Made by a program: the position numbers and the translations under genes. Of a stretch of DNA of 28,566 bases, positions 2,008 through 2,812 are shown one piece after another. The stretch is from positions 1-28,566 of the forward strand of contig JAWOCD010000112.1 of NCBI GenBank assembly GCA_046483985.1, read 5' to 3'. A model generated the notes under the pieces. The model did not search any database and had not been told where the DNA came from. It worked only from the letters and a program-made list of their open reading frames with translations. The stretch's first letter is position 1. Each line of letters opens with the position of its first letter. The stretch comes from Promethearchaeia archaeon. GTDB taxonomy: Archaea; Asgardarchaeota; Lokiarchaeia; Sigyniarchaeales; SOKP01.

Positions 2008-2812
2008 ATGAAACTTATATTTGATGAAAAATATTATAATTCATCCTATGCAGCAGATCCCGCCGCTGCTCCGGGAAGAATTAAGAGCATTATGGAAGTA
2101 CTCGATCAACACAGGGATATGTATGAGAAGATCTCCCCAGAACCTGCAACCGAAGAGCAAATTCTTAGAGCACATACCAGAGATCATTATGAACGGATCA
2201 AACGGAGATCGGAACTCTTTGAATTAGCAAAGTTAGCGGCGGGGGGAGCAATTACGGCAGCCCGAGAAGGTTATAAAGGAAATCCTACTTTTGCTGTGAT
2301 TCGTCCTCCGGGACATCATGCCTCAGCTGGCTCTTGTTGGGGATTTTGCTTCTTTAACAATATGAGTATCAGTTTATTGGAACTCTTTACTCAAAAAAAA
2401 ATTGAGTCTGCATTTATACTTGACTTCGATTTGCATACAGGAGAAGAATTATATATTTCATATAATCTCTTGAAATGGTAATCTTAACATTCTTGCAAAT
2501 CGAAATGATGGTTTCCGGGTAAAGATTCTCAATCCGGATGGAGTAAGCAATACGGCTTATATCCAGGAAGTACGGACCCAGATGGAAAAGTTAGAGGATA
2601 TTGACATCATTACAGCATCTGCAGGTTTTGATCAAGGAAAGGAAGATTGGGGGCATCTCTTAACCCCCCAAGATTATACCTCACTCGGGGCGATGATGAA
2701 AGAGTTTTCTGAAAAATTGTGTAATGGGCGAAGATATGCTATTTTGGAGGGCGGATACAACCACGATGTGCTTGGACATAATGTTCAAGCATTTTGCGAA
2801 GGATTTAAATAA
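2008..2812 (+). CDS. Zn-dependent histone deacetylase/AcuC/APAH-family protein, join(2008..2443,2475..2812), 257 aa after removal of a 31-nt insert
   Basis: First part has RPPGHHA, GFCFFNN and LDFDLHTG. A shifted frame, open from 2477, gives GNLNILANR...SAGFD...LEGGY. Removing 2444-2474 yields DFDLHTGDGN and a single 774-nt ORF. Confidence 0.9.
2444..2474 (+). other. Candidate bulge-helix-bulge (BHB) intron in a protein-coding gene
   Basis: Central 4-bp helix CAGG(2438-41)/CUUG(2469-72); 3-nt bulges AGA(2442-44) and AAA(2473-75); inner stem AG/CU plus AUUAUAU/AUAUAAU. Cutting after the second nucleotide of each bulge restores frame and motif. Confidence 0.8.

What the first reader, a model, noticed from the sequence alone, without database searches (positions are those of the whole stretch)
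2431..2481. Candidate bulge-helix-bulge mRNA intron splitting the active site of a histone-deacetylase-family gene
Seen: the ORF from 2008 reads LDFDLHTG and then drifts into EELYISYNLLKW*, while a shifted frame open from 2477 holds the rest of the enzyme. Deleting 31 nt gives GGA GAT GGT AAT (HTGDGN) and a 257-aa ORF. The RNA folds as an imperfect outer helix (UUGC-A-UA 2431-37 / UGGUAA 2476-81), a central 4-bp helix CAGG 2438-41 / CUUG 2469-72 (one G-U pair), 3-nt bulges AGA 2442-44 and AAA 2473-75 on opposite strands, and an inner stem AG/CU plus AUUAUAU/AUAUAAU closing an AUUUC loop. Established: the archaeal splicing endonuclease EndA cuts after the second nucleotide of each BHB bulge and RtcB ligates the exons; BHB introns are common in tRNA and rRNA but rare in mRNA (the classic case is crenarchaeal cbf5). 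That rule gives cuts after 2443 and 2474, which independently match the deletion required by protein homology. Inference: a spliced mRNA intron in a lysine deacetylase of a probable Asgard archaeon. I do not know of a prior description, and pipelines would likely call it a pseudogene or two ORFs.
Basis: partly seen in the sequence, partly recalled or inferred. Interest (0 to 1): 0.95.

Follow-up and report, generated by a model that had tools for sequence, protein, structure and literature searches.

The report
tRNA-style intron in Asgard deacetylase gene
A deacetylase gene of an uncultured Asgard archaeon is interrupted by a 31-base insert shaped like the introns archaea cut out of tRNAs, and related genomes keep such inserts at exactly the same base, so the messenger RNA is almost certainly spliced, something the papers I could search show inside a coding sequence for only one other archaeal gene (cbf5).

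Summary
Observation confirmed; interpretation supported by comparison, not yet by RNA. Removing 2444-2474, the standard EndA cut sites, restores a 257-aa HDAC-family protein. Most orthologues lack the insert. Ten loci (six genomes in six genera, plus three metagenome contigs) carry 28-33-nt inserts at the same G|AT. Nine break the frame, exons stay under purifying selection, and the central helix covaries with a synonymous exon base. New here: an 11-bp exon-exon helix (2425-2435/2494-2504) with compensatory changes; intron-bearing alleles pair their exons about twice as strongly as intron-free ones. The genome encodes EndA with the broad-specificity loop and RtcB. It has at least six more such inserts, including EF-2, eIF2-gamma and dnaG. 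In a blind homology screen all five high-margin inserts were BHBs. Caveats: the one RNA run did not cover the junction, no EndA beta subunit was found, and the BHB is not this copy's predicted lowest-energy fold. The scan has reported this phenomenon on other DNA (at least 112 genomes), including this HDAC site. In print I found only cbf5 and a Haloferax 5' UTR. Verdict: new variant of a known kind; about 90% a spliced intron.

The parts
2008..2443 (+). Exon 1 of the HDAC-family gene (codons 1-145 plus the first base of Asp146); holds PPGHH, GFC and DxDxH
   Evidence: 49 of 49 conserved columns kept
2444..2474 (+). 31-nt putative BHB intron, phase 1, splitting the Asp146 codon (G|AT); left in, it shifts the frame to a stop at 2479-2481
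2475..2812 (+). Exon 2 (rest of Asp146 to stop); holds SAGFD and EGGY
   Evidence: 30 of 31 conserved columns kept
2438..2441 (+). Central helix, 5' strand (exonic, CAGG); pairs with 2469-2472
   Evidence: pair 2439-2471 occurs as A-U, U-A and C-G across loci
2469..2472 (+). Central helix, 3' strand (intronic, CUUG)
2442..2444 (+). 5' bulge AGA; predicted cut after 2443
   Evidence: cut rule from PMC2738675
2473..2475 (+). 3' bulge AAA; predicted cut after 2474
   Evidence: cut rule from PMC2738675
2445..2468 (+). Intron hairpin: 9 bp with bulged A2447 and 5-nt loop 2455-2459
   Evidence: 100% of cells paired in 5 related loci
2436..2437 (+). Proximal outer helix, 2 bp with 2476-2477
   Evidence: kept in all loci aligned
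2425..2435 (+).
   Evidence: three pairs with compensatory change
2494..2504 (+). Distal exon-exon helix, 3' arm (codons for L-A-N-R; L-E-G-Q or L-E-G-R in the compensated alleles)
2471..2485 (+). 3' splice junction; in a competing predicted fold it pairs with 2444-2460 and hides the BHB
   Evidence: prediction only

Best explanation
The 31 bases are an intron in the mRNA. The transcript folds so that exon bases 2438-41 pair with intron bases 2469-72 between two 3-nt bulges, closed inside by the intron hairpin and clamped outside by exon-exon pairing (2 bp next to the bulge, 11 bp further out). The tRNA-splicing endonuclease EndA cuts after 2443 and 2474 and RtcB joins the exons, giving a 257-aa zinc-dependent HDAC-family hydrolase. 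Shown: the sequence, the frame repair, absence in most orthologues, recurrence at one base, covariation, purifying selection, presence of the enzymes. Inferred: that cutting and joining happen in the cell, and that EndA and RtcB do it. The intron is most likely a tolerated passenger, one of several per genome in this Lokiarchaeia family, not a dedicated regulator.
For: (1) 28 of the 29 best orthologues have no insert, nearly all reading xGDG; 6 of 126 genomes with the gene have an insert at this site. (2) Ten inserts of 28-33 nt begin at the same base, with all three length classes mod 3; nine carry a stop or frameshift. (3) The central-helix pair 2439-2471 is A-U, U-A or C-G, following the third base of the Thr codon; 91.7% of cells paired against 22-49% for slid registers. 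In five alignable loci 98.5% paired, 12 pairs with two-sided change, 0 of 500 shuffles as high. (4) dN/dS 0.08 in both exons of the closest intron-bearing pair; conserved columns kept; this copy evolves no faster relative to kin than its EF-2 (1.3 vs 1.5). (5) Exon-exon duplex -15.3 vs -7.8 kcal/mol and -16.8 vs -8.4 in a second set. (6) EndA alpha subunit with the loop and lysine aligned to Aeropyrum K44; two RtcB. (7) EF-2, eIF2-gamma and dnaG, each with one orthologous copy, are interrupted likewise; 5 of 5 high-margin inserts found blind by homology, and 12 of 12 EF-2 inserts in other genomes, have a 4/4 helix at the best register.
Against: No RNA spanning the junction was seen (no cover). 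ViennaRNA puts a competing fold 6.4 kcal/mol below the BHB in this copy; the central helix falls from about 0.96 to about 0.1 once the transcript passes 2500. This copy's inner hairpin is weak (-1.6 kcal/mol). Four of the ten loci have only 3 of 4 central pairs. No EndA beta subunit was found. Loci are kin, so the statistics overstate.
Confidence: 0.9

Rival explanations
1. The gene is dead: a hairpin insertion inactivated a dispensable deacetylase, and the BHB shape is incidental.
For: The genome has five other, more distant HDAC-family matches; 35 of 161 genomes show no orthologue, some incomplete; the BHB is not this copy's lowest-energy fold; a structure-only scan finds as many decoy hits as real ones.
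Against: Exon 2 is open and conserved; dN/dS 0.04-0.08 in exon 2 between intron-bearing alleles; inserts recur at one base with covarying helices; EF-2, eIF2-gamma and dnaG are broken the same way.
Confidence: 0.03
2. The insert is handled at translation (frameshift, ribosomal bypass, or two separately made halves), not by splicing.
For: A hairpin with a stop resembles bypass signals; cbf5-type genes have been confused with frameshifts (PMC2738675). One contig has a stop-free in-frame 30-nt insert that could be read through.
Against: Lengths 28-33 need +1, 0 and -1 corrections at one site; the Asp codon is split, so no hop can rebuild it; a frameshift would leave about 10 extra residues in the metal-binding motif; the ATG at 2475 is in the wrong frame.
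Confidence: 0.02
3. The insert is removed precisely but by another route: excision from DNA in part of the population, or a nuclease other than EndA.
For: Short flanks are shared between distant alleles, as if DNA-level events occur here; no beta subunit found.
Against: The boundaries obey the second-base-of-bulge rule on the sense strand in every case tested; the joined form is not in this assembly or in genome contigs; no recombinase or nuclease gene was recognised among the neighbours scanned.
Confidence: 0.04
4. Assembly artefact.
For: The genome is a 128-contig assembly; DNA reads were not mapped here.
Against: Homologous inserts occur in independent assemblies (G036 and contigs Ga0102944, Ga0114925).
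Confidence: 0.01

Closest known systems
cbf5 pre-mRNA intron of Desulfurococcales and Sulfolobales (Watanabe 2002; Yokobori 2009, PMC2738675)
   Same: [quoted passage not shown]
   Different: cbf5 is one gene with one ancestral gain and a few losses, and splicing is shown by cDNA. Here the host is Asgard, the intron is scattered (8 changes for 10 loci on a 99-row tree), many genes per genome are affected, exon codons are reshaped to pair, and splicing is not yet shown at this locus.
Intron in the 5' UTR of Haloferax volcanii HVO_1309 (PMC7714728)
   Same: BHB intron in an mRNA, cut by EndA.
   Different: 46 nt, untranslated region, cleavage shown in vitro; it does not interrupt a reading frame.
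Non-canonical tRNA introns of Asgard archaea (bioRxiv 10.64898/2026.10.13.758758) and Thermoproteales
   Same: Short BHB inserts, repeated recent gains, permissive EndA; this genome has such tRNA introns too.
   Different: That preprint concerns tRNA genes only ('mRNA' and 'cbf5' do not occur in its text) and shows no splicing in an Asgard cell.
Eukaryotic HAC1/XBP1 non-spliceosomal mRNA splicing (own knowledge)
   Same: Short frame-changing intron cut by an endonuclease and joined by a tRNA ligase (RtcB in animals).
   Different: Cut by IRE1 at two stem-loops under stress control; no BHB, no EndA. No regulation is shown here.

Membership tests
Archaeal BHB (EndA/RtcB) intron | 4-bp central helix between two 3-nt bulges on opposite strands | tested here: met
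   4/4 pairs (one G-U) in the window; 4/4 in six loci and 3/4 in four; covariation
Archaeal BHB (EndA/RtcB) intron | Cuts after the second base of each bulge give the mature RNA | tested here: met
   The predicted cuts equal the deletion demanded by orthologues
Archaeal BHB (EndA/RtcB) intron | Flanking helices on both sides of the motif | tested here: met
   9-bp intron stem; 2-bp proximal plus 11-bp distal exon helix
Archaeal BHB (EndA/RtcB) intron | The BHB is the fold the precursor adopts | tested here: inconclusive
   Probability about 0.96 up to position 2490, about 0.1 in longer context; covariation favours it
Archaeal BHB (EndA/RtcB) intron | Host encodes EndA able to cut non-tRNA or relaxed motifs, and RtcB | tested here: inconclusive
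   Catalytic subunit with L1/CSL loop and two RtcB found; beta subunit not found
Archaeal BHB (EndA/RtcB) intron | Spliced RNA or circular intron seen in vivo | tested here: inconclusive
   The one RNA run did not cover 2302-2735
Archaeal BHB (EndA/RtcB) intron | Cleavage by EndA in vitro | not testable with these tools
   Needs bench work
Group I or group II self-splicing intron | Ribozyme core of several hundred bases | tested here: not met
   31 nt; no Rfam match in the window
Zinc-dependent HDAC family (PF00850) | Domain match with HH, DxH, D and GGY motifs intact | tested here: met
   Pfam hits on both halves; motifs at 100, 139, 194, 237 of the spliced protein; PDB hits to HDAC6, HDAH and APAH for an intact orthologue
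Zinc-dependent HDAC family (PF00850) | Acts on acetyl-lysine in proteins | not testable with these tools
   Family also holds polyamine and small-molecule amidohydrolases; no NCBIfam assignment

The most novel reading that the evidence does not exclude
These micro-introns are actively spreading elements. They enter active-site codons of Lokiarchaeia genes repeatedly and move between genera together with 50-90 bases of flanking exon, which carry the exon-exon clamp needed for splicing. Support: alleles 68% alike overall differ at only 5 of 54 bases around the junction, and another cross-genus pair at 2 of 54. Not excluded: shared ancestry with selection on pairing (monophyly not rejected, p-AU 0.23 and 0.18). 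A weaker add-on is that the competing fold in this copy gates splicing and so enzyme output.
Probability: 0.3. Interest if true: 0.9.

Novelty: new variant of a known kind. Interest (0 to 1): 0.78.

Why it matters
If right, mRNA splicing by the tRNA machinery is routine in part of the Asgard archaea, the closest prokaryotic relatives of eukaryotes, not a one-gene oddity of Crenarchaeota. Essential genes (EF-2, eIF2-gamma, dnaG) would depend on it, and annotation pipelines are calling such genes broken or truncated. This locus adds a natural experiment: about 200 intron-free and ten intron-bearing alleles of one gene show what an exon must change to carry such an intron (synonymous and surface-residue changes that build a helix). 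That makes intron gain in a coding sequence, and an archaeal precedent for HAC1/XBP1-type splicing, testable with a short synthetic RNA and recombinant EndA.

Tried and rejected
RNA evidence: the only run offered (salt-lake metatranscriptome contigs, share 0.07) had two identical 151-nt pieces at 1828-2108 and nothing over the junction; uninformative. Structure-only genome scans: no excess of true geometry over decoy geometries or shifted registers (for example 883 vs 818-946; 15 vs 10-21), and the filter missed the HDAC intron itself; BHB shape alone is not evidence. A loose DNA pattern for the insert gave 55 hits, nearly all chance; one was useful for naming G036. The joined DNA form was not found. 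A pre-formed hairpin at this site in intron-free orthologues was not supported (rank 92 of 224 positions). Lateral transfer is not proven: AU tests do not reject monophyly. Likeness between the HDAC and eIF2-gamma introns (p about 0.002, one of dozens of pairs, null ignores hairpin symmetry) was not taken as evidence of copying. A candidate EndA beta subunit on contig C106 looks like a GmhB-type phosphatase by its motifs. Other short-frame orthologues were contig ends, an N gap or plain frameshifts (G092, G087, G032, G107, G023). An 0.8-Mb sample of a complete genome of another family (G044, 159 comparable genes) showed no insert. Five paper searches found no report of Asgard mRNA introns; subscription journals are mostly not covered.

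Full report
Observation. The ORF from 2008 runs 157 codons and stops at 2479-2481; a second frame holds the rest of the enzyme. Both halves match Pfam Hist_deacetyl. The RNA can form CAGG 2438-41 / CUUG 2469-72 between bulges AGA and AAA, with a 9-bp inner stem. Cutting after the second base of each bulge, the rule stated in PMC2738675, removes 2444-2474 and gives 257 aa reading HTGDGN. Among the deletion lengths tried, no other product gives DGN. The cut splits the codon of Asp146. From my own knowledge this aligns with the charge-relay Asp of class I HDACs (Asp183 of HDAC8), just after the zinc ligands; the motifs SAGFD and EGGY lie in exon 2, so the unspliced product cannot be active.

Host. 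The window is contig C23 of a 4.06-Mb, 97% complete assembly. A same-family genome, G036, is titled Promethearchaeota archaeon YT6_002, so this is a Lokiarchaeia-type Asgard archaeon. It encodes a 200-aa EndA whose best solved relatives by sequence are 180-186-aa catalytic subunits (3p1z, 3ajv, 2cv8; from my own knowledge crenarchaeal), with the loop and lysine at the position of Aeropyrum K44. Kaneta et al. (PMC5829648) tie that loop to broad specificity and report it across Asgard. Two RtcB genes are present. I did not find a beta subunit.

Orthologues. Of the 29 best orthologues 28 have no insert; G036 has a 30-nt version with an in-frame stop. Across 161 genomes of the class, 126 have the gene. 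Checking every short reading frame gave seven inserts in six genomes of six genera, 28, 29, 30, 31, 32, 33 and 33 nt long, all starting after the same G. Eighty metagenome loci added three. Nine of the ten break the frame; one is in frame and stop-free with a 3/4 helix. One G117 copy is 90% identical to G154 and may be misbinned. In-frame stop-free inserts could have been missed by the genome screen.

Covariation. Over six distinct loci 91.7% of cells pair, against 22-49% in slid registers. The second pair of the central helix is A-U, U-A or C-G; its exon partner is the third base of the Thr codon, so intron and synonymous site change together. In five loci that align without shifts, 98.5% of 130 cells pair and 12 pairs change on both sides. 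Shuffled inserts rarely give helix plus hairpin (0 to 0.7%). The loci are related, so these counts are not probabilities.

Exon 1 bases 2425-2435 pair perfectly with exon 2 bases 2494-2504. Three of the eleven pairs show compensatory change, with the protein reading LANR in one group and LEGQ or LEGR in the other. Exon-exon pairing averages -15.3 kcal/mol with an insert and -7.8 without, and -16.8 against -8.4 in the metagenome set. Intron-free alleles are not specially paired here (rank 92 of 224), so the clamp goes with the intron.

Selection. Intron-bearing copies keep 48-49 of 49 conserved columns in exon 1 and 30-31 of 31 in exon 2; the closest pair has dN/dS 0.08 in both exons while sharing an identical intron. 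This copy's longer branch (1.3 times) is matched by its EF-2 (1.5 times). It is not decaying.

Not alone. Earlier first-reader notes pointed to more inserts in this genome. I located EF-2, iorB, WecC-like, dnaG and AMP phosphorylase with 4/4 helices, VIT1 with 3/4, and found eIF2-gamma myself. EF-2 has only a 33% paralogue; eIF2-gamma and dnaG have no second copy at the threshold used. For a test blind to structure I compared this genome with 1.2 Mb of G083 and 0.8 Mb of G044, choosing deletions by protein score alone. The five inserts with a large score gain (EF-2, eIF2-gamma, AMP phosphorylase here; NadE-like and CinA-like in G083) all had a 4/4 helix and hairpin at the top score, among 2-8 near-top registers; low-margin candidates did not. 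A random register passes 0.15-0.3% of the time. Twelve EF-2 inserts in eleven other genomes, at three further sites, were all 30 nt with 4/4 helices. For iorB, WecC-like, dnaG and VIT1 I checked structure and frame, not orthologues. Structure-only scans had no power.

History. With junction columns removed, ten intron-bearing alleles need eight changes on a 99-row tree. Distant alleles share near-identical flanks. This fits repeated gain or lateral spread with short flanks, but selection on the pairing could do the same, and monophyly of each insert family is not rejected.

Weak points. No spliced RNA was seen; the single run did not cover the junction. ViennaRNA favours a fold pairing 2444-2460 with 2471-2485 by 6.4 kcal/mol once the distal helix can form; before that the central helix has probability about 0.96. 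Co-transcriptional cutting or capture by the enzyme would resolve this; both are inference. A regulatory switch is possible but unsupported, since G036 shows no such gap.

Comparison with the known. It works like the cbf5 intron and meets every sequence-level feature of a BHB intron; the in vivo and in vitro features are untested. PMC7714728 (2020) names cbf5 and a Haloferax 5' UTR as the only mRNA cases; PMC2738675 says introns in other protein genes were predicted but unconfirmed. A 2026 preprint on Asgard introns treats tRNA only. The scan itself has noted this phenomenon in at least 112 genomes, some with claimed RNA support, and this same HDAC site in another genome; I did not check those RNA claims and do not count them as evidence.

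Verdict. A real feature, about 90% a spliced mRNA intron; a new variant of a known kind; interest 0.78.

Noticed in passing
G000 C40:3390-3421 (- strand; within L168): 32-nt insert splitting the P-loop Lys codon of eIF2-gamma, perfect 4/4 BHB with an 8-bp stem; found blind by homology, not among the notes I was shown.
   Followed up: yes
G000 C115:48042-48071 (+), C32:149428-149457 (-), C4:28720-28750 (-), C45:48366-48395 (+), C13:29821-29858 (+), C32:49000-49028 (+): BHB-type inserts in EF-2, AMP phosphorylase, iorB, WecC-like, dnaG and VIT1.
   Followed up: partly
L280-L291 (EF-2 of 12 relatives): EF-2 is a hot spot: 30-nt inserts at H|I, D|S and D|D near its N-terminus; G076 has two; about 18 genomes show a stop-containing 30-nt insert.
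   Followed up: partly
G083 C1 about 2599625-2599654 (+) and 1410020-1410049 (-): 30-nt BHB inserts in a NadE-like and a CinA-like gene (names from motifs).
   Followed up: partly
L234:1934-1963 (contig SDBV01094349.1): In-frame, stop-free 30-nt insert at the HDAC site with a 3/4 helix; either a relaxed or a decaying intron.
   Followed up: partly
G033 C413 and C10; G117 C15 and C155: Two copies of the HDAC gene: G033 has one interrupted and one intact, G117 two interrupted with different inserts (possible contamination).
   Followed up: no
L095 (G023) and L097 (G107): HDAC orthologues broken by a short deletion removing the DxDxH motif and by a one-base frameshift; pseudogenes or assembly errors.
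   Followed up: partly
G000 C17, C18, C37, C50, C102 tRNA loci: ARAGORN finds only 23 tRNAs, several miscalled around about 30-nt inserts at non-canonical positions.
   Followed up: no
window 4419-10345 (-): Two tandem P-type cation ATPases of 962 and 957 aa.
   Followed up: no
window 22307-23425 (-): Two abutting half-size MgtE-domain genes next to a PhoU/TrkA-C gene (21025-22272).
   Followed up: no
window 23736-25664 (+): Acetyl-CoA hydrolase/transferase fused to a GNAT domain, about 21 kb from the deacetylase; no link shown.
   Followed up: no
window 1875-1908: Repeat between the PK_C-like gene and the HDAC gene flagged when laying reads.
   Followed up: no
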